From an uncultured virus (IMG/VR IMGVR_UViG_3300044699_000033) (Duplodnaviria > Heunggongvirae > Uroviricota > Caudoviricetes), in the IMG/VR virus record IMGVR_UViG_3300044699_000033: a stretch of 64,000 nucleotides of DNA. The stretch is one strand, 5' to 3'. The notes beneath the pieces were generated by a model. That model saw only the letters and a program-made list of their open reading frames with translations, did not search any database and was not told the DNA's origin. Positions within the stretch are counted from its first letter, which is position 1. The number at the start of each line of letters is the position of its first letter. Positions 3,001-48,338 of this stretch are shown in pieces. A program made the translations under genes and the position numbers.

Positions 3001-3523
3001 CATATAAAGGTAGGTAATGTTAAATCTGCATTATTAGCTTTAAGATATCCTGCTCCTGGGTCTGAATCTACAACAGATGTAGAAAATTTATAAGGGAAAG
3101 ATGATACCATTATACCATCTGTACCACTATAGCCTGAGAAGCCACTGTCTCCTTCAAGACCTGCTCCATTATAACCACTATATCCAGAGACACCTAAAGC
3201 CCATAACCAGAGTAGCCTGAAAGTCCTAATCCTGAGTAACCAGAATAACCACTTATACCAGTTCTACCTGAGTAACCAGAATAACCTGAAACTCCAAGAG
3301 CACCATAGCCACTATAACCACTTCTACCTGATGTACCTTCCCCACTAGCACCAGAGTAGCCAGAATAGCCTGAAACAGCTTTTAACCTACATATTTTTCT
3401 CAATATGTCTGTAAGCTTTTCGCCTTTATATGTAGGAAAGCAAAATCCTGTATTACAGTCATTTACTACCTCTGACATTGGAATATTCTTATTCCTGACA
3501 ACTATGTACTTATCTGGATCCAT
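1..3523 (-). CDS. Very long (S/T)-G-(Y/F) repeat fibre/spike protein with small beta domains and the start of a pectate-lyase-like beta-helix; frameshifted, runs off the left edge
   Basis: ATG at 3523 (MDPDKYIVV...). Hundreds of SGYSGFSG triplets span several frames. The frame reads through ...SGYSAPSLMPFSTQTNTDYTLV... near 783 and ends in YDYVCDGTADDVQILAAIAALPSTGGRILLSEGTFNI, typical of beta-helix tailspike N-caps. Confidence 0.65.
790..2760 (-). repeat. Degenerate 9-nt tandem repeat encoding Ser/Thr-Gly-Tyr/Phe triplets
   Basis: Units such as TCAGGTTAT/AGTGGATAT/TCTGGTTAC, with synonymous variation, repeat continuously on the minus strand. Confidence 0.95.
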
Positions 3524-3587
3524 ATTACTATAATATCTATAATTAATTAGAGTACAAAATGCCTATGTTGTTTGTATACAATATAGA

Positions 3588-3805
3588 CTAATCTTCAAAT
3601 GGTTCATCTTCAATAGCTTCAGGGGTTTCCTGCACTTCTAATTTGCCATGAGCTATCTTATTTGAGAAGGGATTTTCAATATCTATTCCTAACTCATCTG
3701 CAATGCAGGATTGGTAGAAATCATCTACATCCTCTTCCTTTAGCAGAAAGAGCCACTCATAGCAGGAGATAGATATTGTTTTCCGGTGGGTAATTGGAGT
3801 TGCAT
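3588..3805 (-). CDS. Small acidic hypothetical protein (one frameshift)
   Basis: Manual translation MQLQLPTGK/TISISCYEWLFLLKEEDVDDFYQSCIADELG...EPFED*; needs one extra A in a homopolymer near 3780. Confidence 0.55.
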
Positions 3806-36297: not shown

Positions 36298-36567
36298 TTA
36301 TTCAGTTGCAGATGATGGTGGAACAGGCGTGACATTTTGTTGTATAAATGCCATAATTGGGTTAATTGTCTTCCAATCTAAGCCTTTAAGTTCACCTACT
36401 GCATTAAGGATGGCATTTATTGCCTTTTCTGAAATAAGGTACATTTTCTCCTGTGGTTGTGCAGGGGCTGTTGCTACTACTGGAGCTTTTGGTGCCCTTT
36501 TAGGAGCACCCTTCCCTGGTATATCCACTACTTTTGAGTCTGTTGTTGATTCTTCTGTTAATGACAT
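36298..36567 (-). CDS. Small hypothetical protein
   Basis: 89 aa with its own TATCTTTG promoter (36585-36592, TTTG 19 nt upstream) and terminator. Confidence 0.6.
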   Translation of the reverse strand: MSLTEESTTDSKVVDIPGKGAPKRAPKAPVVATAPAQPQEKMYLISEKAINAILNAVGELKGLDWKTINPIMAFIQQNVTPVPPSSATE

Positions 36568-36653
36568 AAAATATATATTTTTAACAAAGATATGAAATTT
36601 CCAGAATTATCCAAATCTTAAATGTTAAAGAAATGTTAAAGGATTATTAAAAG

Positions 36654-36736
36654 TGGGCAGAGAAGGGATTCGAACCTTCAAACTCTTAGGAGACCTGTTT
36701 TACAGACAGGGTGCTTTACCATTTGCATATCTACCC
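36654..36736 (-). tRNA. tRNA-Tyr: tRNA-Tyr(GTA)
   Basis: Anticodon arm CCTGT-CTGTAAA-ACAGG, long variable arm, TTCGAAT T-loop. Confidence 0.93.
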
Positions 36737-36740
36737 AAGT

Positions 36741-36831
36741 TGCGGAGAGTAAGGGAATTCAACCCTTATCCCAAATTAATGGGACTCTGTTTAGCAAACA
36801 GATGCAGCCAAGCAATATCTGCCTACTCTCC
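36741..36831 (-). tRNA. tRNA-Ser: tRNA-Ser(GCT)
   Basis: GGAGAGT acceptor, TCTGT-TTGCTAA-ACAGA, long variable arm, G73. Confidence 0.9.
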
Positions 36832-36836
36832 AATAG

Positions 36837-36918
36837 AGGAAGGTGAAGTAATCGAAACCTGATGTTTTACCACCGCCTGGGGTTCAAAGCCAGTTACCCA
36901 CCTTGAGTGCCACCTTCC
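36837..36918 (-). tRNA. tRNA-Ser: tRNA-Ser(TGA), 8/4-type cloverleaf
   Basis: Acceptor GGAAGGTG/CACCTTCC (8 bp), T-stem AGGT/ACTT (4 bp), loop TTTGAAC, variable arm. Confidence 0.8.
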
Positions 36919-36923
36919 TTATG

Positions 36924-36998
36924 TCCTTCTAGCTGGATTCGAACCTGCACTTTTACAAGGTTTAAGCTTGTCATGTCTGCCAATTGCATCATAGAAGG
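36924..36998 (-). tRNA. tRNA-Leu: tRNA-Leu(TAA), short variable region
   Basis: ACAAG-CTTAAAC-CTTGT; Leu-type D-arm ATGCAATTGGCAGACAT; A73. Confidence 0.88.
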
Positions 36999-37002
36999 AT
37001 AG

Positions 37003-37076
37003 TGACCCTGAAGAGACTCGAACTCTTAAATAACTGATCCTAAGTCAGTTGTGTCTACCAATTGCACCACAGGGCC
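37003..37076 (-). tRNA. tRNA-Leu: tRNA-Leu(TAG), short variable region
   Basis: ACTGA-CTTAGGA-TCAGT; Leu-type D-arm; A73. Confidence 0.9.
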
Positions 37077-37079
37077 AAT

Positions 37080-37109
37080 AAAAAACCCCCAACTTTTCAG
37101 CCGGGGGTT
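37080..37109 (-). terminator. Attenuator terminator A, upstream of the Leu/Ser/Tyr tRNAs
   Basis: AACCCCCGGCT-GAAA-AGTTGGGGGTT-TTTT ending 3 nt before tRNA-Leu(TAG). Confidence 0.88.
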
Positions 37110-37131
37110 ATTAAGTGTACGCAGGTCTCCG

Positions 37132-37209
37132 TTATTTTGTACATACCATTCCCAGCTTGTTCTTTGACAAGAGTGATAAACTGGAATAATATGATAGAAT
37201 GAATATCAT
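37132..37209 (-). CDS. Leader peptide A (MIFILSYYSSLSLLSKNKLGMVCTK)
   Basis: 25-codon ORF with 11 consecutive Leu/Ser/Tyr codons, overlapping the antiterminator strand. Confidence 0.8.
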   Translation of the reverse strand: MIFILSYYSSLSLLSKNKLGMVCTK

Positions 37210-37211
37210 TT

Positions 37212-37364
37212 TTAAATATGACCTGTTGCTGTCAATACTGCAAGCACTATAGTTGCTACTATAGCCACAATATTAACTGCTGTTTTTGTTGTTTGGCTTG
37301 CTGCAACATTCCCATTAAAGAGATACATTACAACAAATAAAGCTGCTAATAAGAACCAATTCAT
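37212..37364 (-). CDS. 50-aa two-helix membrane protein
   Basis: MNWFLLAALFVVMYLF...VAIVATIVLAVLTATGHI; ATG 3 nt after TATATTTG (37368-37375). Confidence 0.6.
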   Translation of the reverse strand: MNWFLLAALFVVMYLFNGNVAASQTTKTAVNIVAIVATIVLAVLTATGHI

Positions 37365-37406
37365 AGGCAAATATACAACCTTTTAACGAAGACTCTAAAT
37401 TTTATT

Positions 37407-37868
37407 TTAGAATTCTTCAGTTGTAGTTTCTGTAGTTGATTCTGTTGTTGTTGCTTCAGTTGTAGTCTCAGTTGTAGACTCTGTTGTAGTCTCAGTAGTT
37501 GTTTCAGTTGTAGTATCACCTACAGTAGAAGCAACATCTGCTGATGTAGCAGCAACTTGATCCTTGATTGCTTGAACTTGATCAATAACAGCTTGAATTT
37601 GTTCAGGAGATGCACTTTCTGCAAGTTGAGCCTGAAGAGCTGCAATTGTTTCATTAAGCCCTTGAACAACAGCAGCATTTGTATCAAGCAATGCTTGAAT
37701 TTGCTCTTGTTCTGCATCTACAGTTTCTTGTAGACCTGCAACTTGTGATTTAAGTTCTGCAACTTGTTCGTTAAGAATTTCGACTTTTCCCATAATTTGA
37801 TTGAGTTTTTTAAGTATTAAAGATTCGTTTTCAAAATGATTGTGAATATGTATGTGTAATCCTGTCAT
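37407..37868 (-). CDS. Coiled-coil protein with Thr/Glu-rich tail
   Basis: Heptad-like Q/A/L pattern; C-terminal TTTE repeats. Confidence 0.65.
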   Translation of the reverse strand: MTGLHIHIHNHFENESLILKKLNQIMGKVEILNEQVAELKSQVAGLQETVDAEQEQIQALLDTNAAVVQGLNETIAALQAQLAESASPEQIQAVIDQVQAIKDQVAATSADVASTVGDTTTETTTETTTESTTETTTEATTTESTTETTTEEF

Positions 37869-37958
37869 AATTTTAATATTACACTTTGTTTGTGTGGTAA
37901 ATATACGAATAATAATTGAATCTACAAAATTTATTTGTCTATTTTTTGTAAAAAATTT

Positions 37959-38114
37959 TTAGAATATAGCTTTTGCTATAAAATAGAGAAGTAAAACAAT
38001 TGCAGAAATGATAAGAATATGCTTTAATCTAAGTTTGTAAGGAGCGTAATAATGTACTCCCAATAAAATGATAAAACACAATACGAATACCAGTATAAAG
38101 TAAATTAAGGACAT
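37959..38114 (-). CDS. Small membrane protein
   Basis: MSLIYFILVFVLCFIILLG...ILIISAIVLLLYFIAKAIF, two hydrophobic helices. Confidence 0.45.
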   Translation of the reverse strand: MSLIYFILVFVLCFIILLGVHYYAPYKLRLKHILIISAIVLLLYFIAKAIF

Positions 38115-38233
38115 GAATAACTGCAATATAGTCCTTTTGTGCGAAACTATTATTATATAATTACGACTAAATGTTATATAATTCCCACATATAATACTAC
38201 AATTACTATGCCAAAGATATAACACATTACTAA

Positions 38234-38308
38234 TGTGGAGGATACCAGCATCGAACTGGTGACTCTAGCTTGCAAAGCTAGTGTTTTTGCCATCTATACT
38301 AATCCCCC
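38234..38308 (-). tRNA. tRNA-Ala: tRNA-Ala(TGC)
   Basis: G3:U70; CTAGC-TTTGCAA-GCTAG. Confidence 0.92.
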
Positions 38309-38373
38309 AGAAGGGCATTGATTGAGGGCTCAATGCTCAAAGCCTTTTGTAACATCCCTGCCTAAGGCAGAGA

Positions 38374-38535
38374 CTAAACTCCTTTAAATGTTTGACCACT
38401 TAAAGAGAAATACTCTCTTGCAGAAATTTTGTTTCTTACAAAGAGAGAGATTGCATTTCCTTTGTTAGCAGATTTCTTCTTATTTCTGCCACATTTCCTG
38501 CAACCTTTTACTTTTTGTCCATCTCTTTTAGCCAT
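38374..38535 (-). CDS. 53-aa basic protein with CxxC
   Basis: MAKRDGQKVKGCRKCGRNKKK...; A-rich upstream context. Confidence 0.5.
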   Translation of the reverse strand: MAKRDGQKVKGCRKCGRNKKKSANKGNAISLFVRNKISAREYFSLSGQTFKGV

Positions 38536-38614
38536 TTTCTGTGTTGGCTAGCTGTTTTGTCAGCTAGTTACCACGTTAGGCTATTTCTTGCTTTTCTCAT
38601 TTTGCTTGTTTTAG

Positions 38615-38687
38615 TGCAGCTAATAGGATCTGAGCCTATGACCTCTTGCTTATCAGACAAGTGCTCTACCAACTGAGCTATAGCTGC
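38615..38687 (-). tRNA. tRNA-Ile: tRNA-Ile(GAT)
   Basis: CTTGT-CTGATAA-GCAAG; canonical D-arm. Confidence 0.9.
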
Positions 38688-38691
38688 AATT

Positions 38692-38808
38692 TTAACAGGA
38701 AGTTTTATATTTTCTAATTCTTCCTCTCCTTCTTCTAATACAGATAAGACATGCACCATTGCATTTAATAATCTTTCTTATACTTTTTATTCTTTCCACC
38801 CTTCTCAT
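38692..38808 (-). CDS. 38-aa Arg/Lys/Cys-rich mini-protein
   Basis: MRRVERIKSIRKIIKCNGACLICIRRRRGRIRKYKTSC fills the spacer between two tRNAs. Confidence 0.35.
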   Translation of the reverse strand: MRRVERIKSIRKIIKCNGACLICIRRRRGRIRKYKTSC

Positions 38809-38882
38809 GTTGACTTGCCCAGAGTCGAACTGGGACAGCTCATGTTATGAGCATGATTCTCTACCAATTAAGATACAAGTCA
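38808..38882 (-). tRNA. tRNA-CAT (elongator Met or lysidine-Ile2)
   Basis: TCATG-CTCATAA-CATGA; identity not resolvable by eye. Confidence 0.85.
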
Positions 38883-38885
38883 ATT

Positions 38886-38960
38886 TGGCCGAGAGTGGGA
38901 GGTTCGAACTCCTACCTTTTGCGTGACAAGCAAATATGCAGCCATTACACCACACCCTCG
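38886..38960 (-). tRNA. tRNA-Asp: tRNA-Asp(GTC), folds best as 8/4
   Basis: TTTGC-TTGTCAC-GCAAA; G73 and encoded CCA. Confidence 0.88.
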
Positions 38961-38964
38961 GTAT

Positions 38965-39192
38965 TTACATATATCTTATAAGATGCTTTGCTTCCATTTC
39001 AGGAAGAAAATCTGCATCTCCCATATCTGAAACAGGTACATAAAATGTAATTACCATTACACCACTTCCTGGAGTACCTATGGTAGCCTCATAGTAAGCT
39101 GTACCTTTCCTGATATATAAGAACTTTGCCTTTGGTTTCTCTTTATAAAGAGCCTTTTTGATAATTTCAGTACTTAAAATGCTATTATCCAT
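38965..39192 (-). CDS. Hypothetical protein
   Basis: 75-aa ORF between tRNAs (IKKALYKEKPKA...VPVSDMGDADF). Confidence 0.65.
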   Translation of the reverse strand: MDNSILSTEIIKKALYKEKPKAKFLYIRKGTAYYEATIGTPGSGVMVITFYVPVSDMGDADFLPEMEAKHLIRYM

Positions 39193-39206
39193 ATTGTTGA
39201 TTTTAG

Positions 39207-39278
39207 TACTCTATGAGAGGATCGAACTCTCTTCAACAGTTTGAAGGACTGCTATCCTGGCCATTAGACGAATAGAGC
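39207..39278 (-). tRNA. tRNA-Glu: tRNA-Glu(TTC)
   Basis: GCAGT-CCTTCAA-ACTGT; Glu-type D-arm GTCTAATGGCCAGGAT. Confidence 0.85.
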
Positions 39279-39311
39279 ATTTCCACTTTAACCTGGTCCA
39301 GTGGGAAGGTA

Positions 39312-39385
39312 GGAGCACCAGTGGAGTAACAATCTCCATACTCCAGTTTGGAAGACTGGTGTGTATTCATCAACACTTCTGATGC
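39312..39385 (-). tRNA. tRNA-Gly: tRNA-Gly(TCC)
   Basis: CCAGT-CTTCCAA-ACTGG; U73; atypical T-loop ATTGTTA. Confidence 0.82.
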
Positions 39386-39544
39386 ATGGAGGGAGACTGG
39401 TTATTTATACCATTAATTAGGGACTCTCCCAGACCCTTCTTGCTCTTTGTTACTCAGGGAGAGGCGGTTCATAGTATTACCCACCTTCAAGAGATTACTT
39501 TATTCCCTCAGGTTCTTTACCCTCCCCGTGAGTAACTTAATTAT

Positions 39545-40032
39545 TTATATATCTCTGGGTGCTACAAACATGGTCAGCAGCCTTTGTTGTAATAACATGA
39601 TCTCCTTTGAATTCTGCATTATAGTTTAAACCCTTTCATCCATCCATTTACAGCAGATACTAGTTTATTACTTGCCCACTTTGGGATTTGATTATAGTCA
39701 AACTCTAAAGCTTCAAAGGATATAGGTATCTCAGAATCAATTAGTTGTGCTGCTTCTAATGTCCTTTCAGCTTCTCCAAAGAGTCTTGTGTACATGTCTC
39801 TTATGATTGGAAGCTGCTCTCTGTAATAGACAAAGTGTGCTCCTCTGTGTCCATACCTATATGCTACTACAGTAACATACACTGTATTCCTCTTTCTCCT
39901 ACCTTTTCCTCTTTCATCCTGAGAGTCAGTACCAACATAGATTTTCATATTAGGCCACTTTTGTAATTGCTCTAAAGTGTGCTCAACTATGTTAACTCTT
40001 TCACCTTGTTGTGTTCTGAAGTACTTGTCCAT
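39545..40032 (-). CDS. RNase H-like YkuK (DUF458) family protein; C-terminal frameshift
   Basis: KIYVGTDSQ...YVTVVAYRYG.RGAH...RLFGEAERT...FDYN; the shifted frame continues ...FKGDHVITTKAADH. Confidence 0.8.
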
Positions 40033-40273
40033 TGGTTCTAATTAATCTATAATACCTACCTCTTCTTGTTTTCTTTATAATAATCTTTAATCTTCTAAGA
40101 ATTCTAGGAACATGGTGACCCATATAAATCCTCTCATATCCTACCTTCTTTTCAAAAGCTTCATCAATGAGTTCCATTCCTCCTATACCTGTTCTGACAA
40201 CAATCTGTCTTGCAGGAGGACAGTCACCACCCCAATATTCTATAATTGCTTTCTTTATAGTTTCTGTATCCAT
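40001..40273 (-). CDS. Hypothetical basic protein
   Basis: MDTETIKKAII...; ATG 4 nt after TATCTTTG (40278-40285). Confidence 0.55.
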   Translation of the reverse strand: MDTETIKKAIIEYWGGDCPPARQIVVRTGIGGMELIDEAFEKKVGYERIYMGHHVPRILRRLKIIIKKTRRGRYYRLIRTNGQVLQNTTR

Positions 40274-40313
40274 ATTACAAAGATAATAATCAAATTTCAA
40301 AGAACCAAATAAA

Positions 40314-40389
40314 TGTTGCAGGTGTTGGATTCGAACCAACGATCTCTAAGGTTATGAGCCTTGAAGGATGACCACTTCCCTAACCTGCA
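40314..40389 (-). tRNA. tRNA-Met: tRNA-Met(CAT), initiator-like
   Basis: AAGG-CTCATAA-CCTT; fMet-like D-arm GGAAGTGGTCATCC. Confidence 0.85.
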
Positions 40390-40393
40390 ATAT

Positions 40394-40468
40394 TGCTCCC
40401 CCTCAGAATTTTGAAATCTGGACCTCAACCTTAACAGGGTTTTGCTCTGCCCTCTGAGCTAAAGGGGA
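40394..40468 (-). tRNA. tRNA-Asn: tRNA-Asn(GTT)
   Basis: TCCCCT acceptor, AACC-CTGTTAA-GGTT, G73. Confidence 0.9.
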
Positions 40469-40476
40469 ATATTTAG

Positions 40477-40549
40477 CACACCTGAGAGGATTCGAACCTC
40501 TATCTTACAGTTTAGAAAACTGGGGCAATCTCCTTTATACTACAGGTGC
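40477..40549 (-). tRNA. tRNA-Arg: tRNA-Arg(TCT)
   Basis: CAGT-TTTCTAA-ACTG. Confidence 0.87.
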
Positions 40550-40553
40550 ATTC

Positions 40554-40628
40554 TGTAGAGCCACCCAAATTCGAATTGGGAACAAAGGTTTAGGAAACCT
40601 TTATTTTATCCTATTAAACTATGGCTCC
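40554..40628 (-). tRNA. tRNA-Arg: tRNA-Arg(CCT)
   Basis: AAGGT-TTCCTAA-ACCTT. Confidence 0.87.
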
Positions 40629-40631
40629 ATT

Positions 40632-40705
40632 TGTACAGGGTGAGAATTTTGAAATCTCGACTTCCACTTTGTAGGAGTGGCACTCTTCCTCTGAGTTAAC
40701 CCTGC
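40632..40705 (-). tRNA. tRNA-Val: tRNA-Val(TAC)
   Basis: CCACT-CCTACAA-AGTGG; A73. Confidence 0.88.
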
Positions 40706-40706
40706 A

Positions 40707-40877
40707 TCACTTTAAATTCTTCAATTGTATCATTAAAGCTGATATTTCACTTGTATACTTACTTACACTAATTTCAGCAGTATTAGATGTTTTCTGCTTT
40801 AAATTAGAATACATTTCATCCTCAAGGAACTTAATCCTGTCTATTAGTTTTTGTCTTTTCTTTTCTATCTTGCTCAT
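40707..40877 (-). CDS. Small basic helical protein
   Basis: MSKIEKKRQKLIDRIKFLEDEM...; fills the spacer between tRNAs. Confidence 0.6.
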   Translation of the reverse strand: MSKIEKKRQKLIDRIKFLEDEMYSNLKQKTSNTAEISVSKYTSEISALMIQLKNLK

Positions 40878-40888
40878 ATATTTGGTTT

Positions 40889-40962
40889 TGTGACCCCAGT
40901 GAGCCATGATCTCACAACCCCAGTTTAAGAGACTGGTACTCTGCCAATTGAGCTATGGAGTC
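40889..40962 (-). tRNA. tRNA-Lys: tRNA-Lys(CTT)
   Basis: CCAGT-CTCTTAA-ACTGG; atypical T-loop. Confidence 0.85.
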
Positions 40963-40965
40963 TAG

Positions 40966-41038
40966 TCCCCCTGAGAGGAGTCGAACCTCCTGTCTTCTGA
41001 TTAAAAGTCAGTAGCTTGTCCAAATAAGCTCCAAGGGG
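40966..41038 (-). tRNA. tRNA-Lys: tRNA-Lys(TTT)
   Basis: CTGA-CTTTTAA-TCAG; TTCGACT T-loop. Confidence 0.9.
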
Positions 41039-41042
41039 AAAT

Positions 41043-41072
41043 AAAAAACCCAGAGCTTTTGACTCTGGGCTT
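41043..41072 (-). terminator. Attenuator terminator B, upstream of the Lys...Ala tRNAs
   Basis: GCCCAGAG-TCAAAAG-CTCTGGGT-TTTTT, 4 nt before tRNA-Lys(TTT). Confidence 0.88.
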
Positions 41073-41107
41073 CTAATATTCTGTCTGTACTTTATATTAA
41101 TTCAATA

Positions 41108-41188
41108 TCAGACAATAGAAAACCCAGAGCCAAATTTGCCATTTGCCTCAATTCCTCTATTATCCACTATCATATATAAGTTGTACAT
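41108..41188 (-). CDS. Leader peptide B (MYNLYMIVDNRGIEANGKFGSGFSIV)
   Basis: 26-codon ORF; 13 consecutive codons match the amino acids of the downstream tRNA set; overlaps the antiterminator strand 41116-41131. Confidence 0.8.
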   Translation of the reverse strand: MYNLYMIVDNRGIEANGKFGSGFSIV

Positions 41189-41215
41189 TTTCTGCTGTTA
41201 TTAAATTTTAGAATA

Positions 41216-41247
41216 CAAATATACGGAATTACTTTGAACTTTCCAAA
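41216..41247 (-). promoter_or_regulatory. Bacteroidota promoter (TTTG-N20-TATATTTG) driving leader B and tRNA group B
   Basis: -7 element 41216-41223; -33 TTTG 41244-41247. Confidence 0.75.
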
Positions 41248-41534
41248 TTTATTTTTGGAACTTTCTTAATTAACCCTAATTTCTTCTTCATACTCTTAGT
41301 TTGGGGAGCAGCTTGCCTCTTTTGCAGGAGTTCAGCTTTGTCCTTTCTCTTTGTATGGTAATTTATTAATTCCCAATGAGTCTCATGATTAAGTTGGAAA
41401 ACCTTGTCAAAAAACTCTATTTTCTCTTTTTCCTTAATCTGGTCTAGCCTTTTCTTGTATAAATCTTTCCTTATTTGATTATATACCCTTGCTTTCATGG
41501 CAAGAGTTTTCAATGATATATTTATCTGTTTCAT
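41229..41534 (-). CDS. Basic helical hypothetical protein downstream of the PTH2-like gene
   Basis: MKQINISLKTLAMKARVYNQIRK... Confidence 0.55.
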   Translation of the reverse strand: MKQINISLKTLAMKARVYNQIRKDLYKKRLDQIKEKEKIEFFDKVFQLNHETHWELINYHTKRKDKAELLQKRQAAPQTKSMKKKLGLIKKVPKINLESSK

Positions 41535-41887
41535 TTTTATTAATTTTATTTTTGAATAAAAGTGGTATTTTAGATACCAATTTCTGTGTAAGTGGACTTG
41601 GTTCAATAGCTATTGCTGTTATTTCATTCCCAATGTCAGGTTCTCTAAAAGCTGTATAGGCTAATTGTAGCCTGTCACAGTTTTGCATTAGAAGCTTAAG
41701 TTGTTTTTCATTCTTAAGTTCTAAGAGAACAAGGTAATTGGAGTTTTTAAACCAAGGACCAGCTCTTCCAGGATGTTCAAAGATAAATTAATAGCAGCAT
41801 GGGCTGACTGCACTGCTTTGTACCCATCTGATAAGTCCTCTCTTGTGACTAATTATCAGCTTACTGTATTTCTTGTATCTACTTCAT
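41479..41887 (-). CDS. Peptidyl-tRNA hydrolase PTH2-like protein (frameshifted; TAG at codon 3)
   Basis: Reconstructed KLII-VTREDLSDGYKAVQSAHAAI...NYLVLL...FREPDIGNEITAIAIEP...IPLL, the phage PTH2-like signature. Confidence 0.75.
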
Positions 41888-41901
41888 AATGAATCTTTTA
41901 G

Positions 41902-41974
41902 AGATGCTGATGGGGCTCAACCCACAACTGGGAATTTTAGAGATTGCCTGCTCTATCAATTGAGCTACAGCACC
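41902..41974 (-). tRNA. Amber suppressor tRNA (anticodon CTA)
   Basis: GGTGCTG/CAGCATC acceptor, GCTC/GAGC D-stem, loop CT-CTA-AA. One anticodon-stem mismatch and a 6-nt T-loop (possible errors). Own TACATTTG promoter at 41981-41988. Confidence 0.72.
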
Positions 41975-42009
41975 ATAGCACAAATGTAGGCAAATTCAGG
42001 AGATTTACC

Positions 42010-42781
42010 AATATTATTTTTAAGAAGTTTAATTGTCCAGAATACAGCAGCCAAATTGGGTCTGTAATATAACTGAAAGGGAGGTAAAAATGCCCCTTAT
42101 TTCCCAGTTTGTTCCCCAAGAGTTTCTGATTTTACAATTGCTGTCTTTCATCATCATACCCTACACAGCATACAGCATGAACTCCTAAGCATTTTCTCAT
42201 CAGGTGTAGCAATGGCACTATACCTGTGTTGTAACCTGTGTGCTTTCAAAGCTTGAATACACTGCAAAACCAAAGACAATGTAAAGTCCTGTAGCTAGAC
42301 AAGTTTTTAGCTCATTAATGTTAGTATTATCCAGTCTCTCATAAACATCTATTTTATGAGGTATGGCTGTTGTGTAAGCACCAGTAGGTGGTTTTTGCCT
42401 GAATTTGATTTATTTTATAAGGCCAAATTGTCTCTGGACAAGCACCCCAGTTATAATACTTTTAATACCATCTCTTAACATGGCACCTGAATCATAGGGA
42501 ACAGTACCTTCTATAACCTTTCATTGTTAATATATAAAGAGCCTAGAGGGTTGTATGATGGGAAGTCCTTCTTTGAATTTTGTGAAATCAAGAGAAAGAG
42601 AGATAGCATTTCCTGTGCAGGGAGGCCTAAGCTTCTCTTGGTCATATGTATATGTTACCTGTCTAGATAAGTCTACCCTGTGAGGTAGTTCAATTTGTGC
42701 AGGTGAGAAATTTTAAGTCTCTAACAGTCAGGAGTATCTGGCTTACCAGGTGTATTTATATCTATGTTTTAATTGTGACAT
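42010..42781 (-). CDS. Papain-like C1A cysteine peptidase (heavily frameshifted)
   Basis: Pieces read YDQ...CTGNAIS, PSRLFIY, DSGAMLRDGIKS, WPY, HAVCCVGYDD, RNSWG..WG.KGHFYLP. Confidence 0.8.
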
Positions 42782-42797
42782 ACCAAGTTTATTTTTG

Positions 42798-42868
42798 AGC
42801 AGGTAAAGAGATTTGAACTCTTAAAAGCAGTTTCGTGGACTGCTGGTTAATCCATTGCCTATACCTGC
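42798..42868 (-). tRNA. tRNA-Arg: tRNA-Arg(ACG)
   Basis: GCAGT-CCACGAA-ACTGC; GCAGGTA/TACCTGC acceptor. Confidence 0.8.
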
Positions 42869-42869
42869 A

Positions 42870-43200
42870 TTATTTGAAATAATTAAGAGCAAACATTGCA
42901 AGGTTAAAATAATGGTAATTGCTGCTACCCACCCTGCCTGCCTGTTCTGCTTATCTATAAGAAGCTGGACTTTAGCATTAACTTCCTTTATTTCAGACTC
43001 ATATACTTCCCTAGGAAATAAACTAGCCTGCATAAGTCTTAAACTTTCTGCCTCATGATTAAGTATTTCTAAACGTCTTTCATACTCTTTGCCTGAATCT
43101 CAAGAGCTTTTTCTTGGTATTTATCCTTTTCTGTTAAGATTTCCTTTGCATGGTTAATTTGAGCTTGCAAGAATTCCTTTGTATATTGTATTTCATCCAT
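42870..43200 (-). CDS. Coiled-coil protein with C-terminal TM helix (frameshifted)
   Basis: MDEIQYT...EKRLEILNHEAESLRLMQASLFPREVYE...GWVAAITIILTL. Confidence 0.45.
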
Positions 43201-43248
43201 CTTCTATAATATAAGGAAATTAACGGAAATCTCCAAATCTTTCTGTTT

Positions 43249-43321
43249 TGGGTGTAAGGACGGTATTGAGCCGACTTCCATGCTCCACAGGCATGTGCTT
43301 CACCTTAAAGCTTCAAACACC
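43249..43321 (-). tRNA. tRNA-His: tRNA-His(GTG)
   Basis: G-1/C73; CATGC-CTGTGGA-GCATG. Confidence 0.82.
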
Positions 43322-43358
43322 ATTTGCGTAGAATAAGTGCCTTATTCTCCTTAAAAAG

Positions 43359-43427
43359 ATCCCCTGACTGGACTTGAACAATAACTTTAGATCCAAATTC
43401 TAAAATGTTACCATACACTACAGAGGA
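43359..43427 (-). tRNA. tRNA-Gln: tRNA-Gln(TTG), T-arm degraded (likely sequence error)
   Basis: T1-A72 acceptor TCCTCTG/CAGGGGA; TTAGA-ATTTGGA-TCTAA. Confidence 0.7.
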
Positions 43428-43430
43428 ATG

Positions 43431-43503
43431 TGCACCCATGTAAAGATTCGAACTCTAACTAACTGGTTTGGAATCAGTTGTGCTACCATTACACTACACG
43501 GGT
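43431..43503 (-). tRNA. tRNA-Trp: tRNA-Trp(CCA)
   Basis: ACTG-ATTCCAAAC-CAGT; G73. Confidence 0.87.
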
Positions 43504-43545
43504 ATATATCTTATATCCATTTAGAGACTTTTAAAGTCCCCACAG

Positions 43546-43617
43546 TGGTACAGGGCAGATTTGAACTGCCAACACCCTGAGCTTCATTCAGGTGCTCTAC
43601 AATGGAGCTACTGTACC
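43546..43617 (-). tRNA. tRNA-Phe: tRNA-Phe(GAA)
   Basis: CCTGA-ATGAAGC-TCAGG. Confidence 0.87.
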
Positions 43618-43707
43618 ATTTGTCACTGTACACTCTTTGAGGGTTGTACTCCTGTTGGAGACCCGTTATGACATTAAATATAAAAGACGGGTCAAGCTTC
43701 TATATCT

Positions 43708-43780
43708 TGGAGTCACCTAGAGGATTTGAACCCCTGTAGGAGCTTTTGCAGAGCTCTGCCTACCACTCGGCCAAGGTGAC
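43708..43780 (-). tRNA. tRNA-Cys: tRNA-Cys(GCA)
   Basis: GAGCT-CTGCAAA-AGCTC; U73 and CCA. Confidence 0.92.
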
Positions 43781-43850
43781 AATAGTCAGGGAAGTACCAC
43801 CGATGGCTTTGAGTACACTTTCAGTACCTGAAATTAGCTTCCCTTTTAAG

Positions 43851-43925
43851 AGCCTCCTGTCGGGCTCAAACCAACTAATTCCTCATTACAAGTGAGGTAC
43901 TCCTTATCTTCAGAGAATAGGAGGC
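43851..43925 (-). tRNA. tRNA-Thr: tRNA-Thr(TGT)
   Basis: GCC acceptor start; CCTCA-CTTGTAA-TGAGG. Confidence 0.85.
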
Positions 43926-44014
43926 ATTGGGCTGGTGTAATGGCTGCCCTGCCAATTGACTTCTCGACTACACCTGTGAGTCAATAGACCTATTATATTG
44001 CTCAGAGAATCACC

Positions 44015-44089
44015 TGTATAGTAGACCGGGGTCGAACCTGCATTCCACTTGCTCCCAGGCAAGGGACTTACCAATTAGTCAACTACTAT
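44015..44089 (-). tRNA. Probable tRNA-Pro (NGG; anticodon loop reads only 6 nt, CTGGGA)
   Basis: Full cloverleaf; CTTGC-CTGGGA-GCAAG, one base probably missing. Confidence 0.65.
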
Positions 44090-44094
44090 AAATG

Positions 44095-44126
44095 AAAAAC
44101 CTTCATCTTGAGATCATGAAGGGCTT
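44095..44126 (-). terminator. Attenuator terminator C, upstream of the Pro...Arg(ACG) tRNAs
   Basis: CCTTCAT-GATCTCAAG-ATGAAGG-TTTTT, 5 nt before the first tRNA. Confidence 0.78.
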
Positions 44127-44149
44127 TAAAGAATCCGTGTTAAATATTT

Positions 44150-44231
44150 TTAACAGACATAGCAAACCCTTCCTGTTTCTGGTTGAAACTGGGGACAAAA
44201 CGTATGCCATGTATGACGTAATTTTGTTCAT
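44150..44231 (-). CDS. Leader peptide C (MNKLRHTWHTFCPQFQPETGRVCYVC; requires removal of one A near codon 3)
   Basis: 82 nt from ATG to TAA (81+1); 13 consecutive codons CGT...CCA match the downstream tRNA set. Confidence 0.7.
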
Positions 44232-44236
44232 TTTTG

Positions 44237-44323
44237 TTATTTTTTAGGCTTTGGTCTTGGTCTAGTGGGTCTACCACCACCACTTCCACAACCACAGCCA
44301 ACTATTGCTGTGTTTTTTACCAT
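44237..44323 (-). CDS. 28-aa peptide MVKNTAIVGCGCGSGGGRPTRPRPKPKK
   Basis: Clean ATG-TAA ORF between the promoter and leader C. Confidence 0.55.
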   Translation of the reverse strand: MVKNTAIVGCGCGSGGGRPTRPRPKPKK

Positions 44324-44339
44324 GTGTTTAATTATAACA

Positions 44340-44370
44340 CAAATATACTAAATTTTTTTCAACTTCCAAA
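44340..44370 (-). promoter_or_regulatory. Bacteroidota promoter (TTTG-N19-TATATTTG) driving leader C and tRNA group C
   Basis: -7 element 44340-44347; -33 TTTG 44367-44370; lies just after a terminator. Confidence 0.78.
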
Positions 44371-44384
44371 TTTATTTTTTAAAG

Positions 44385-44409
44385 AAAAAAGGGATGTAGA
44401 AACATCCCT
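44385..44409 (-). terminator. Intrinsic terminator ending the fibre gene operon
   Basis: AGGGATGT-TTCT-ACATCCCT-TTTTT. Confidence 0.85.
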
Positions 44410-44459
44410 AGAAGTTACCCTTGGAAACCAACAACCAAGGACTTTATTAAACTAAAGAT

Positions 44460-45423
44460 TTATGTAAATGTTCCTGTTATATACCAAGTTGTACTTGCTG
44501 TTTTAGTTATAGTTGCAACAGCATCTGCTGGAATTGTTCTACTACCTGTTCCTGTAGTACCATCTCCTCTTTGTAAAGTATCAGAGTTTATTGCAAGTGT
44601 AATAGCACCTGAACCTGTGGCATTAACAATTGTTATTCTTGTTCCCACTGCATATGCCACCGAAGCATTAGCAGGAATTGTCCATGTTGTAGCTGTAGAG
44701 GAATGTAAAAGTATATTATTAGCATCACCTATAACAAATGTGTAAGTTTGTCCGGAGATGTAACTATTGATGCAGAAGAGTACCCTGAATAACCTGTTAT
44801 TCCAGAATATGCACTATAGCCTGAAGTTGATGAGTATCCGCTGTAACCTGTATAGCCACTGAAGCCTGACCAGGTCCACTGTAGCCAGAGTACCCTGTGT
44901 AGCCTGAGTAACCAGACTTGCCTGAGTAACCAGAGAAACCACTGGTACTAGAATATCCGCTGAAACCAGATGTAGAAGAGTAACCAGAATATCCTGTATA
45001 ACCTGAGTAACCAGATTTTCCAGAATATCCGGAATAACCAGTATAACCTGAAAATCCACTACCTGAATAACCACTGAAACCTGAACCTGAATAACCAGAA
45101 TAACCAGATTGACCTGTGTAGCCGCTAAAGCCTGAAGTAGATGAATACCCACTAAAGCCTGAAGTGGATGAATAACCTGAAAAACCACTTAAACCTAAAC
45201 CAGAATATCCTGAGAATCCAGAGCCTGAATATCCGCTATATCCTGACCTTCCACTATAACCTGAGTATCCAGATATTGAGGAGTAACCACTAAAACCTGA
45301 AGAATAATAGCCTGAGTAGCCACTAGTGCCTCCTCCAGCAATCTTTCTTACAGCTTTTTTAACTTCTGTTTTCTTGAAAAAAGCAGCTATAGTATCCCCT
45401 AAAAATTCTCTTAATACACTCAT
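44460..45423 (-). CDS. SGY-repeat fibre protein with C-terminal beta-sandwich module (frameshifted)
   Basis: MSVLREFLG..., SG(Y/F) repeats, then TYTFVIGDA...WTIPANASVAYAVGTRITIV...WYITGTFT. Confidence 0.65.
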
Positions 45424-47054: not shown

Positions 47055-48338
47055 TTAAAATCCTACTGTAGTTGTTGTAGTTGTTGATGAAGAAGTTGTT
47101 GATGAAGTATTATATGCTGCAGAGGATACTGAAGATTCATAGATGATTACCACTGTTGAACCATCTTCTCCTGTTGCACATATTTCACAGAAAGCACAAG
47201 CAGCTTGATTTACATTCTTGTGAATACATTTCTCACAAGTTAAACCATCATTTCCTATCTTAGCTGTGATATCTACTACTAAGGTTCCTGTTAAGTTCAA
47301 GCCAGAGATTAACACTTCTGTCTCATTATTGTTAGTAAAGTTGTCTACAATATCAATTGTAAAGCTTTCTACATTACCATCTATGTCTGTAATAGTACCT
47401 GTAGAACCTTGGTCTTCATATCCTGCTGGAATTGATGTACCTGCACCTGAAGTGAATTTGATTATAATTCCTGTATTGTCCTCATTATAAACTGCTGAGA
47501 ATCCAAGAAGTATATCATCACAAGAAGCTGCACAGCAATTTTCTTCCATGAATATTATTCTTTGTCTAAGGCTTTCTACTTCTAAAAGAAGATTACCATA
47601 GTTTTCAGCCCAATTAGTAGGAGTCAGGTTCCATCCTGTAATAAGACCAAATTCAGTATTTAGGTCTGTAGGAGTAAGTGCCAGTGCAGTAGCAATATCC
47701 ACTGTATCTCCTGTAAAGGTAATTAAGTCACATAATGCTTGTGATGTATTTACTACCTGTGTTGAGGTTGGCAATAATACACCATTAATACATGTAGATA
47801 TCAAGATATCACCTGAAGCTACATCTGTATCAATATTGTCTATCTGAGACTGTAAAGAAGTTACACTTCCTTCAAGTCCCTCTATTCTACCTTTCTGGTT
47901 ACAAAGATTATCTATTACTAGTTGGTCAAACGCCTCTCTGTCAATAGATAGAATGTTACCTAAGTTGTCTTCTGTAGCATAGCACTTTAAGTTAACACTT
48001 ACAGCCCCTTCATTAGTTATTGAAGCAATCTGCTCACTTAGAATGTTTATCTTGTCATTTAGACAGATTTCAGTATCTTTAATAAGATTGAATATAGCAA
48101 GAGTTGTTATCTCCAGAGGAACTGCCTGATCACAAATCTCAGCTAGTGCATCTATATCAAATTCAGATAAATCATCTTCTGAAAATGCTTTTATCTTATT
48201 TGTTAGCTCTACTATAACATTACAAATCCCGTCACCTTCACATATCCCTAAATACTCTATATCTCCACAATCCCATATTATTTGAGAAGATGGAATGGGT
48301 ATGAAGTTGTCTATATTACAATTAGTTATTTTTTTCAT
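47055..48338 (-). CDS. Cys-rich coiled-coil virion protein
   Basis: 427 aa, acidic, coiled-coil segments, poly-Thr/Ser C-terminus. Confidence 0.55.
   Translation of the reverse strand: MKKITNCNIDNFIPIPSSQIIWDCGDIEYLGICEGDGICNVIVELTNKIKAFSEDDLSEFDIDALAEICDQAVPLEITTLAIFNLIKDTEICLNDKINILSEQIASITNEGAVSVNLKCYATEDNLGNILSIDREAFDQLVIDNLCNQKGRIEGLEGSVTSLQSQIDNIDTDVASGDILISTCINGVLLPTSTQVVNTSQALCDLITFTGDTVDIATALALTPTDLNTEFGLITGWNLTPTNWAENYGNLLLEVESLRQRIIFMEENCCAASCDDILLGFSAVYNEDNTGIIIKFTSGAGTSIPAGYEDQGSTGTITDIDGNVESFTIDIVDNFTNNNETEVLISGLNLTGTLVVDITAKIGNDGLTCEKCIHKNVNQAACAFCEICATGEDGSTVVIIYESSVSSAAYNTSSTTSSSTTTTTTVGF

What the first reader, a model, noticed from the sequence alone, without database searches (positions are those of the whole stretch)
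41038..41247. Attenuator B: a one-of-each leader (M-I-V-D-N-R-G-I-E-A-N-G-K) for the 13-tRNA group
Codons ATG ATA GTG GAT AAT AGA GGA ATT GAG GCA AAT GGC AAA (41173-41135) cover all ten amino acids of tRNAs 38234-41038. Structure: 1:2 GAGGCAAAT/ATTTGGCTC; antiterminator GGCTCTGGGTTTTCTA pairs with TAGAAGCCCAGAGTC and nearly copies the terminator's 3' strand; terminator stem followed by T6. Unlike classical leaders with tandem identical codons, this is a multiplexed sensor. The ATA codon suggests one CAT tRNA is Ile2. Caveat: an internal TATCTTTG promoter at 40278-40285 could express the distal six tRNAs independently.
Basis: partly seen in the sequence, partly recalled or inferred. Interest (0 to 1): 0.88.

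Follow-up and report, generated by a model that had tools for sequence, protein, structure and literature searches.

The report
Leader-peptide switch controlling phage tRNA genes
A phage places a tiny coding sequence and an RNA on/off hairpin in front of a block of 13 tRNA genes, and that sequence uses the ten amino acids those tRNAs carry, so the phage probably makes more tRNA only when decoding of those codons is slow.

Summary
It rests on sequence comparison only; there is no RNA or bench evidence.

- **The unit.** On the minus strand lie a Bacteroidetes-type promoter (41247-41216), a short ORF, a strong hairpin plus T6 (41074-41043) and then tRNA-Lys (41038), the first of 13 tRNAs.
- **The codon match.** Codons 41173-41135 spell all ten amino acids of that tRNA group.
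- **Relatives.** Four related phage contigs, including GenBank Lbo-JY46, keep the same unit. Their leaders carry the same amino-acid set in shuffled order. The Arg codon matches the operon's Arg tRNA. Cys codons appear only where tRNA-Cys sits in that operon.
- **Other tRNA blocks.** The window's other two tRNA blocks have matching leaders of their own, and other phages partition the amino acids differently with leaders that follow. In an automated scan, 15 of 31 leaders matched their operon at p<=0.001, against 3 of 124 mismatched controls.
- **Structure.** A very stable antiterminator (z -6.8) shares the terminator's 5' arm. It is predicted to survive only while a ribosome sits on the sensor codons. 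Three positions covary three ways.

- The start codon is probably 41188.
- The ORF runs on past Lys.
- The window carries homopolymer indels, so the ORF's tail frame is probably off by one base.

No paper describing this was found.

The parts
41244..41247 (-). -33-like TTTG of the leader promoter
   Evidence: It lies 20 nt upstream of the -7 box and is kept in L001, L114 and L192.
41216..41223 (-). -7 box TATATTTG (TAnnTTTG type)
   Evidence: It is near-invariant (GTAT[A/C]TTTGTAT) in the alignment. The same motif stands before the other leaders read (a one-base variant, TATATTTA, in L141). Its assignment to Bacteroidetes promoters is recalled.
41108..41188 (-). Leader ORF as the window stands: M Y N L Y M I V D N R G I E A N G K F G S G F S I V, stop TGA. 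The true end is probably TAA 41094-41092.
   Evidence: The other frame reads ...GFLLSDIELI*, which matches the tails of L192 and L114. The window has one extra T relative to three relatives.
41135..41173 (-). Sensor codons: 13 codons covering the 10 amino acids of the operon
41111..41164 (-). Anti-antiterminator (1:2): outer helix 41164-41151 with 41123-41111; inner hairpin 41149-41141 with 41135-41127
   Evidence: Minimum-energy folds; coordinates.
41109..41134 (-). Region 2: 5' strand of the antiterminator, starting right after the last sensor codon
   Evidence: -30.1 kcal/mol, z -6.83, 0 of 200 shuffles as stable; covariation.
41061..41087 (-). Region 3: 3' strand of the antiterminator; contains the terminator's 5' arm (41074-41062)
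41043..41056 (-). Region 4: terminator 3' arm and T6 run (41048-41043)
   Evidence: -18.8 kcal/mol; 94.6% of cells paired, 4 pairs with compensatory changes.
38235..41038 (-). Regulated block: 13 tRNA genes from Lys(ttt) to Ala(tgc), interspersed with small ORFs and an internal promoter-like site (40309-40278)
   Evidence: No terminator-like site on this strand was listed inside the block.
44095..44347 (-). Sister unit A: -7 box 44347-44340, a small Gly/Cys-rich ORF, the leader (ATG 44231; sensor frame 44227-44150), hairpin 44124-44100 and U-run, before tRNAs Pro? Thr Cys Phe Trp Gln His Arg(acg)
   Evidence: The ATG is one base out of frame in the window; a short-read contig has one A fewer at 44222.
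37084..37375 (-). Sister unit C: -7 box 37375-37368, a 50-aa hydrophobic ORF, leader ORF 37209-37132 (sensor L S Y Y S S L S L L S), hairpin 37109-37084, before tRNAs Leu Leu Ser Ser Tyr

Best explanation
This is a ribosome-mediated transcription attenuator that controls a phage tRNA operon.

Proposed sequence of events:
1. A host-type promoter starts a transcript whose first 80-100 nt encode a leader peptide.
2. Twelve to thirteen consecutive codons of that leader each call for a tRNA encoded just downstream.
3. Directly after the last of these codons begins the 5' strand of a long antiterminator helix, which takes up the 5' arm of an intrinsic terminator.
4. If any of the ten kinds of aminoacyl-tRNA is scarce, the ribosome lingers on the sensor codons. 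The antiterminator then stands, RNA polymerase reads through, and the 13 tRNAs are made.
5. Once these codons are read fast, the ribosome runs into the antiterminator strand. The terminator then forms and transcription stops 5 nt before tRNA-Lys.

The product of the operon is the molecule being sensed, so this is a direct negative feedback on tRNA supply.

Shown: the sequence parts, their conservation, the match between codons and tRNAs, and the predicted and covarying alternative helices.

Inferred: that the leader is translated, that stalling decides termination, and what this is for in an infection.
For: **1. Anatomy in the window.**
- Promoter, ORF, hairpin plus T6 and first tRNA are all present.
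- All 10 amino acids of the 13-tRNA block are found in 13 codons.

**2. The B-type leader is kept in 4 further phage contigs.** Each carries the full set in a different order:
- L001: MIVDRINGAEK
- L114: VNIADRNNIGGIEK
- L192: IVDNGMARGIEK
- Lbo-JY46: 11 of 11, including Cys

**3. Codons follow operon content.**
- The sensor Arg codon is CGT or CGC in all 5 A leaders (Arg-acg operons).
- It is AGA in all 5 B leaders (Arg-tct operons).

**4. Other operon partitions have matching leaders.**
- L129: 6 of 6.
- L148: 7 of 7.
- L146: 14 of 14 and 9 of 9.
- L117: 4 of 4.
- Overall, 18 of 19 curated leaders contain every amino acid of their operon.

**5. Automated scan of 97 loci.**
- 15 of 31 leader/operon pairs reached p<=0.001.
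- 3 of 124 mismatched pairs did so.

**6. Structure.**
- Antiterminator: -30.1 kcal/mol, z -6.83.
- In 17 of 19 leaders the terminator's 5' arm is predicted sequestered (P 0.65-1.0) while the A site is on sensor codons, and freed (P<=0.32) at the stop codon.
- For the window even the full-length equilibrium switches: terminator probability is 0.8, about 0, then 0.8.

**7. Covariation in 4 sequences.**
- Terminator: 4 compensatory pairs. Antiterminator: 3.
- Alignment columns 87, 90 and 91 change together with both of their partners.

**8. Reading frame.** The distance from the ATG to the last sensor codon differs between relatives by whole codons: 18, 16, 17 and 18 codons.
Against: - **No expression data.** No RNA run was listed, and no laid contig covers the leader ORF itself.
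- **Predictions only.** The structures are computed, and the covariation rests on 4 related sequences.
- **Equilibrium model.** For L001 and Lbo-JY46 the full-length equilibrium model did not switch. Only the model truncated before the terminator's 3' arm did.
- **Exceptions.** Two of 19 leaders (L1C, L129) stay at 0.42-0.56 at the stop codon.
- **Codon gaps.** Two tRNAs of the window's block, Lys(ctt) and Arg(cct), have no codon in the sensor. GGC has no strictly matching anticodon.
- **Internal promoter.** A promoter-like site at 40309-40278 could feed the distal six tRNAs on its own.
- **Weak statistics for small or full sets.** By the score used, the C-type leaders, L117a and L141 are not significant on their own.
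- **Non-independence.** Relatives share ancestry, so the counts are not independent events.
- **Sequence quality.** The window has many single-base indels, so the leader's exact end is uncertain.
- **Alternative signal.** Starvation for an amino acid would also cause stalling, and extra tRNA would not help then.
Confidence: 0.75

Rival explanations
1. The unit is an attenuator that senses general translation capacity or transcription-translation coupling, as pyrBI-type or ermC-type leaders do. It would respond to overall ribosome speed, not to the supply of specific tRNAs.
For: Each amino acid appears only once or twice in the sensor, which in classical models gives low sensitivity per amino acid. 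[quoted passage not shown] The structural logic would work for any slowdown.
Against: A general sensor has no reason to list exactly its operon's amino acids, to avoid those of the other operons, or to follow tRNA moves between operons (15 of 31 matched against 3 of 124 mismatched).
Confidence: 0.1
2. The small ORF is an ordinary micro-protein gene with its own terminator. The tRNAs are made by constitutive leak-through or from other promoters.
For: The C-terminal tail (G-x-I/L-L-S-D-I/V) is kept at the amino-acid level between distant contigs. Internal promoter-like sites exist.
Against: This does not explain the match between leader composition and downstream tRNAs, the shuffled order with a conserved set, the antiterminator that overlaps the ORF's end, or its covariation. 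The conserved tail lies on conserved RNA helices, which may be why it is conserved.
Confidence: 0.07
3. The leader RNA senses tRNAs directly, T-box-like, by pairing codon-like triplets with anticodons. No translation would be needed.
For: The triplets match the anticodons of the downstream tRNAs.
Against: No T-box or other Rfam family matches the leader. The start and stop codons are conserved. Length changes come in whole codons. The switch point fits a ribosome footprint. Ten or more specifier sites in 39 nt have no precedent or structural room.
Confidence: 0.03
4. Chance: the hairpin is the terminator of the upstream gene, and a random ORF happens to precede it.
For: AT-rich DNA holds many short ORFs. 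The promoter and terminator scans find many consensus matches.
Against: A conserved promoter lies between the upstream gene and the leader. The hairpin is about 150 nt past that gene's stop. The chance score is 4 in 20,000. The unit recurs in relatives and before the other two tRNA blocks.
Confidence: 0.01

Closest known systems
Leader-peptide transcription attenuators of amino-acid operons (trp, his, leu, pheA)
   Same: Promoter, short translated leader with regulatory codons, an antiterminator and terminator that exclude each other, and a race between ribosome and polymerase (principle as in the abstract of PMC1183508).
   Different: The genes controlled are tRNA genes, not biosynthetic enzymes. 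The sensor is not a run of one codon but one or two codons for each of 3 to 14 amino acids. The element is phage-borne, with a Bacteroidetes-type promoter and no Shine-Dalgarno sequence visible. The passage of PMC2965389 seen states that up to 2010 such systems had been shown only in Proteobacteria and Actinobacteria.
Multivalent leaders (thr operon with Thr and Ile codons; ilvGMEDA/ilvBN with Leu, Val and Ile codons); recalled, not checked here
   Same: One leader senses more than one amino acid, and a stall at any of them gives readthrough.
   Different: Those sense 2-3 metabolically linked amino acids with several codons each. Here up to 10-14 unrelated amino acids are listed once or twice, defined only by which tRNA genes follow.
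pheST (pheM) leader and T-box riboswitches, which control translation-apparatus genes by tRNA charging; recalled
   Same: Regulation of decoding-machinery genes by the availability of cognate charged tRNA.
   Different: pheM controls a synthetase with Phe codons only. T-boxes bind tRNA directly without translation, and no T-box match was found here. Neither controls tRNA genes.
Phage tRNA arrays in general (T4, T5, KVP40-like and crAss-like phages); recalled
   Same: Clusters of many tRNA genes inside a phage genome, here with an amber-suppressor tRNA as well.
   Different: My searches of the held library found no regulatory leader described for such arrays. In GenBank record PP438436.1 the three leader intervals carry no annotation.

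Membership tests
Ribosome-mediated (leader-peptide) transcription attenuator | Short ORF with start and stop codons between the promoter and a terminator, upstream of the first regulated gene | tested here: met
   The ATG at 41188 and the ORF are kept in L001, L114, L192 and Lbo-JY46.
Ribosome-mediated (leader-peptide) transcription attenuator | Regulatory codons cognate to what the operon supplies | tested here: met
   10 of 10 amino acids. 12 of 13 codons are strictly readable by the operon's anticodons. The match follows operon content in other phages.
Ribosome-mediated (leader-peptide) transcription attenuator | Intrinsic terminator (G+C-rich hairpin plus U-run) between the leader ORF and the first gene | tested here: met
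   -18.8 kcal/mol and T6, ending 5 nt before tRNA-Lys. All 9 units first examined have one. There are 4 compensatory pairs.
Ribosome-mediated (leader-peptide) transcription attenuator | Alternative antiterminator helix that uses the terminator's 5' arm | tested here: met
   z -6.83. The core helix is 88.6% paired with 3 compensatory pairs in 4 sequences.
Ribosome-mediated (leader-peptide) transcription attenuator | Geometry: a ribosome on the regulatory codons leaves the antiterminator free, and a ribosome further on masks it | tested here: met
   In silico only. The switch lies within a few codons of the end of the sensor run; 17 of 19 leaders fit the criteria.
Ribosome-mediated (leader-peptide) transcription attenuator | Readthrough shown to depend on leader translation and on tRNA charging | not testable with these tools
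   No RNA run was listed. This needs bench work.
Ribosome-mediated (leader-peptide) transcription attenuator | Regulated genes are amino-acid biosynthesis or synthetase genes (the classical scope) | tested here: not met
   The genes that follow are 13 tRNAs. This is the point of novelty, not a failure of the mechanism.
T-box riboswitch | Match to the T-box model (Stem I with specifier loop, T-box sequence) | tested here: not met
   Rfam gave no match at the gathering threshold or at E<=1. The only hit over the leader is a noise-level miRNA model, 28.1 bits against a cut-off of 83.
Plain terminator of the upstream gene | The hairpin follows the upstream stop codon with no promoter or ORF in between | tested here: not met
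   The upstream ORF ends at 41229. A conserved promoter (41247-41216) and the leader ORF lie between it and the hairpin at 41074-41043.

The most novel reading that the evidence does not exclude
Large phages with Bacteroidetes-type promoters run a closed-loop controller of their own decoding capacity. Their tRNA genes, often covering all 20 amino acids, are split into two or three operons, and each operon is headed by a leader peptide that lists that operon's amino acids. An operon fires only when one of its own tRNA species is limiting. That could happen at the start of infection, when phage codon usage outruns the host's tRNA pool, or when a host defence cuts or depletes particular tRNAs. 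The operon shuts itself off once supply is restored.
Probability: 0.6. Interest if true: 0.95.

Novelty: new variant of a known kind. Interest (0 to 1): 0.9.

Why it matters
- **A new target for attenuation.** Why phages carry tRNA genes, and how they are controlled, is an open question. Here the tRNA operon appears to read out the supply of its own products through translation. This would be the first leader-peptide attenuator in front of tRNA genes.
- **Direct product feedback.** The gene product is itself the sensed molecule.
- **A wide OR-gate.** It would be by far the most multiplexed leader known, an OR-gate over up to 14 amino acids.
- **Easy predictions.** Leader content should predict operon content in any new genome.
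- **Annotation.** It explains unannotated 'intergenic' stretches in phage tRNA arrays.
- **Testable link to defence.** It offers a way to test whether phage tRNAs answer codon mismatch or tRNA-targeting host defences.
- **A building block.** The elements are compact natural parts that report on several tRNAs at once.

Tried and rejected
**Searches that found little or nothing**
- Megablast of 38000-44200 against phages: only 45-nt tRNA-Asn matches to Bacillus phages.
- The upstream 125-aa ORF as a probe in IMG/VR: no relatives.
- An exact terminator pattern from the window: 0 hits. So the window itself is not in that collection.
- A 15-mer from the leader: 110 stretches, all chance except L001.
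- A gapped terminator pattern: only L001's contig.
- Blastn of the leader against phages: only the promoter part matched, in Lbo-JY46.
- Genome-contig scan: only an archaeal PTH2.

**Comparisons that did not help**
- The Lbo-JY46 'Orf299' protein is not a relative of the PTH2-like gene.
- The alignment of CAT, TAT and GAT tRNAs does not by itself settle the Ile2 identity; gene order does better.
- The full-length equilibrium folding model did not switch for L001 and Lbo-JY46. I replaced it with a co-transcriptional truncation model.

**Statistics that lack power**
- The score used has no power for 3-amino-acid sets or 20-amino-acid sets.
- The automated grouping split some operons at false 'heads', for example L192 B.

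**Sequencing runs**
- No RNA holder was listed.
- The laid contigs do not cover 41108-41188.

- No whole genome is held for this window.

**Literature**
- Nine searches found no description of leader peptides before tRNA genes, and no paper on Lbo-JY46.
- I saw passages of PMC3082878 and PMC2965389, and the abstract of PMC1183508.
- Subscription-only papers are outside the library.

Full report
**What the window is.** All long ORFs lie on the minus strand. They include a large terminase (59932-62157), a portal (57135-59912), a weak major-head match and collagen-like tail fibres. The window is therefore part of a phage. It is distant from anything named. The best portal match in GenBank phages is 26.9% identity to Leptolyngbya phage Lbo-JY46, followed by crAss-like Bacteroides and Flavobacterium phages at about 22%. 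Between structural genes sits an array of tRNA genes at 36653-44089.

**The tRNA blocks.**
- A more permissive ARAGORN run brings the total to 27 tRNAs, counting an amber suppressor (cta) and leaving out three intron or outlier calls.
- The tRNAs fall into three blocks.
  - Block A: Pro? Thr Cys Phe Trp Gln His Arg(acg).
  - Block B: the 13 tRNAs of the finding.
  - Block C: Leu Leu Ser Ser Tyr.
- Together the three blocks cover all 20 amino acids.

**The observation.**
- The stated codons are at the stated coordinates.
- They contain all ten amino acids of block B.
- 12 of the 13 are strictly readable by anticodons of the block.
- A random peptide of the same length and composition scored as well in 4 of 20,000 trials.
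- The region holds only 3 ATG ORFs of 10 or more residues.
It starts at an upstream in-frame ATG (41188) and runs eight codons past Lys.
- Upstream lies TTTG, then 20 nt, then TATATTTG (41247-41216). I recall this as the Bacteroidetes promoter type. It overlaps the end of the preceding ORF, which stops at 41229.
- So the leader is a transcription unit of its own, not the tail of the gene before it.

**Relatives of unit B.**
- A neighbouring 427-aa protein led to IMG/VR contig L001 at 55% identity.
- A PTH2-like gene inside the array (Pfam PF01981, 31.1 bits) led to 77 more IMG/VR loci and 18 metagenome loci.
- Four contigs share the window's A/B/C layout: L001, L114, L192 and GenBank Lbo-JY46 (L113). 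In Lbo-JY46 the order is B, C, A.
- The tRNA-Lys genes of the window and L001 barely resemble each other. Yet promoter, leader and hairpins align well.
- The B leaders, from the conserved ATG, read as follows.

| Contig | B leader |
|---|---|
| window | M Y N L Y M I V D N R G I E A N G K ... |
| L192 | M Y S S Y I V D N G M A R G I E K ... |
| L001 | M Y L I N M I V D R I N G A E K ... |
| L114 | M L Q L V N I A D R N N I G G I E K ... |
| Lbo-JY46 | M I N S I D I R N I D I V C A E G V N K ... |

- Each contains every amino acid of its own block B: 10 of 10 four times, and 11 of 11 in Lbo-JY46. The order differs each time. The length from the ATG to the last sensor codon changes by whole codons.
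- In Lbo-JY46 tRNA-Cys lies in block B, not block A. Its B leader has Cys codons, and its A leader, alone among the five, has none.
- One Lbo-JY46 tRNA that ARAGORN and GenBank call Cys(aca) has the same unusual anticodon loop as the window's tRNA-Val(tac). I counted it as Val.

**The other leaders.**
- The window's blocks A and C are each preceded by the same arrangement, and so are those of the relatives.
  - A leaders carry R, H, T, W, F, C, P and Q.
  - C leaders carry runs of L, S and Y.
- Arg occurs in both A and B leaders. It is CGT or CGC in all five A leaders, whose blocks hold Arg(acg). It is AGA in all five B leaders, whose blocks hold Arg(tct).
- More distant contigs split the amino acids differently, and their leaders follow.
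  - L129: Pro His Ser Tyr Leu Gln, 6 of 6.
  - L148: Thr Cys Gln Ile Gly His Glu, 7 of 7.
  - L146: two operons, 14 of 14 and 9 of 9.
  - L117: Asn Tyr Glu Asp, 4 of 4.
- Of 19 curated leaders, 18 contain every amino acid of their operon; L141 has 19 of 20.
- By the score used, 8 are at or below 2 in 10,000. The C-type leaders, L117a and L141 are not significant by that score, which has no power for very small or complete sets.

**Automated scan.**
- The scan covered 97 loci. It looked for a hairpin plus T-run within 110 nt before a tRNA, and took the longest ATG ORF ending just upstream.
- It found 62 such heads, or 57 after dropping three exact duplicate loci.
- Of these, 31 had an ORF and a set of at least three amino acids.
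  - 15 of the 31 reached p<=0.001.
  - 25 of the 31 covered their whole set.
- Pairing the same ORFs with the tRNA set of another locus gave 3 of 124 at p<=0.001.
- The 15 come from 12 contigs. Some of these are close relatives of each other (L146/L154; L148/L149/L157), so the counts are not independent events.

**Structure.**
- All nine units first examined have a hairpin plus U-run ending just before the first tRNA, at -11.7 to -25.1 kcal/mol.
- In the window, the 15 nt right after the last sensor codon (41134-41120), plus an inner helix, pair with 41087-41061, which contains the terminator's 5' arm.
- This antiterminator folds at -30.1 kcal/mol, z -6.83, with 0 of 200 shuffles as stable.

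**Ribosome-position model.**
- I masked the RNA up to 12 nt past the first base of the A-site codon.
- In the full-length equilibrium for the window, terminator probability is:
  - about 0.8 with no ribosome or with the A site on codons 2-6;
  - 0.00-0.06 on codons 7-15;
  - about 0.8 from codon 16 to the stop.
- L001 and Lbo-JY46 did not switch in that equilibrium model.
- I then cut the transcript before the terminator's 3' arm, to mimic the moment of decision. In 17 of 19 leaders the 5' arm is sequestered (maximum P 0.65-1.0) while the A site is on sensor codons, and free (P<=0.32) at the stop codon.
- The drop comes within a few codons of the last sensor codon. L1C and L129 are the exceptions.

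**Covariation.**
- The alignment has four B leaders.
  - The terminator has 94.6% of cells paired and 4 pairs with changes on both sides; 2 of 500 shuffles did as well.
  - The antiterminator core has 88.6% paired and 3 such pairs.
- Columns 87, 90 and 91 of region 3 change together with both partners. In L192, for example, one base differs in each of regions 2, 3 and 4 so that both helices are kept.
- Four related sequences are few, so this is supporting evidence and not proof.

**Mechanism.**
- The parts and their geometry are those of a classical leader-peptide attenuator, with the tRNA operon's own codon list in place of a codon run.
- Slow decoding of any listed codon should leave the antiterminator standing and let polymerase run into the tRNA genes.
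- Fast decoding should bring the ribosome onto region 2 and allow termination.
- The sensed molecules are the operon's products, so the loop is self-limiting.
- Shown: the sequence features, their conservation, the codon/tRNA correspondence, and the predicted and covarying helices.
- Inferred: translation of the leader, stall-dependent readthrough, and the purpose. The purpose could be to compensate for a codon-usage mismatch with the host, or for tRNA loss during infection or host defence.

**Sequence quality.**
- Contigs of four runs labelled soil metagenome match parts of 36500-44500, many at 99% or more. They differ from the window by single-base insertions or deletions: 12 are listed and 16 more are not shown, within 8 kb.
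- One such difference, an A fewer at 44222, puts the ATG of leader A in frame with its sensor codons.
- Others repair the PTH2-like gene (41784, 41851) and fall inside the odd 'tRNA-???' (44057).
- None of the laid contigs covers leader B.
- The alignment shows one extra T in the window at 41123-41120. The other frame from there reads ...GFLLSDIELI*, matching L192 (...GILLSDIELI*) and L114 (...GILLFDVIV*).
- The true stop is therefore probably TAA 41094-41092. This does not change the model.

**What is known.**
- Nine full-text searches found no description of a leader peptide or attenuator before tRNA genes, in phages or bacteria, and no paper on Lbo-JY46.
- The GenBank record of Lbo-JY46 leaves the three leader intervals unannotated.
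- The principle of ribosome-mediated attenuation is as in the abstract of PMC1183508.
- A 2010 survey stated that leader-peptide systems had until then been shown only in Proteobacteria and Actinobacteria, and it does not mention tRNA genes as targets (passages of PMC2965389).
- Multivalent leaders for two or three amino acids (thr, ilv) are known to me from memory.
- I therefore rate this a new variant of a known kind. The mechanism is familiar. The target and the one-of-each design are new.

Noticed in passing
window 44095-44347 (-) and 37084-37375 (-): Two sister units stand before the other tRNA blocks. Each has a promoter, a leader ORF listing that block's amino acids, and a hairpin plus U-run. 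Unit A covers R, H, T, W, F, C, P, Q. Unit C covers L, S, Y. Both are kept in L001, L114, L192 and Lbo-JY46.
   Followed up: yes
window 36500-44500 (for example 44222, 44057, 41851, 41784): The window differs from short-read metagenome contigs by many single-base indels: 12 listed and 16 more not shown. These indels break leader A's frame, the PTH2-like gene and the tRNA-Pro anticodon loop. The window looks like an unpolished long-read assembly.
   Followed up: partly
window 41901-41974 and 41479-41887 (-); L114-L190: An amber-suppressor tRNA (cta) with its own promoter-like site is followed by a PTH2-like peptidyl-tRNA hydrolase gene. That reading frame starts ATG AAG TAG in the window and ATG AGT AAG TAG in L001. 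Most of the 77 IMG/VR loci found with this protein also carry a tRNA(cta). The in-frame amber codon may tie the gene's expression to suppression.
   Followed up: partly
window 730-3730 (-): Collagen-like tail-fibre ORFs join into longer frames only if TAG is read as an amino acid: 655 aa with one TAG, and further frames with 5-7 TAGs. This fits amber recoding of some late genes, though indel errors may also contribute.
   Followed up: no
window 40278-40309 (-): A full promoter-like site (TTTG, 20 nt, TATCTTTG) lies inside block B, before a roughly 90-aa ORF and an RNaseH-like ORF (39619-40032, Pfam PF04308). It could express the distal six tRNAs independently of the leader.
   Followed up: partly
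window 39386-39620 (-): About 230 nt of G+C-richer sequence with no ORF and no Rfam match lie between the RNaseH-like ORF and tRNA-Gly (39312-39385). Its nature is unknown.
   Followed up: no
window 41092-41125 (-); L192:2068-2100; L114, L148, L149, L157 leaders: The leaders' C-terminal tails share G-x-(I/L)-L-(S/F)-D-(I/V) even between distant contigs. They lie on a conserved TTGTCTGAT stretch that forms the inner helix of the antiterminator. Whether the peptide or the RNA is under selection is open.
   Followed up: partly
L113 (PP438436.1) 47073-47298 (-): In the GenBank record, a tRNA annotated Cys (ARAGORN anticodon aca) shares the anticodon loop CCTACAA with the window's tRNA-Val(tac) and is probably Val. 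A tRNA-Lys(ttt) directly after the hairpin is not annotated, nor are Glu, Ser, Arg(acg) and Trp tRNAs that the permissive run finds.
   Followed up: partly
window 38374-38535 (-); L117 about 13615-13764: A conserved 50-53 aa basic protein (K/R-rich, with a C-x-x-C-type motif) lies inside the tRNA arrays of the window and L117. It has no Pfam match.
   Followed up: no
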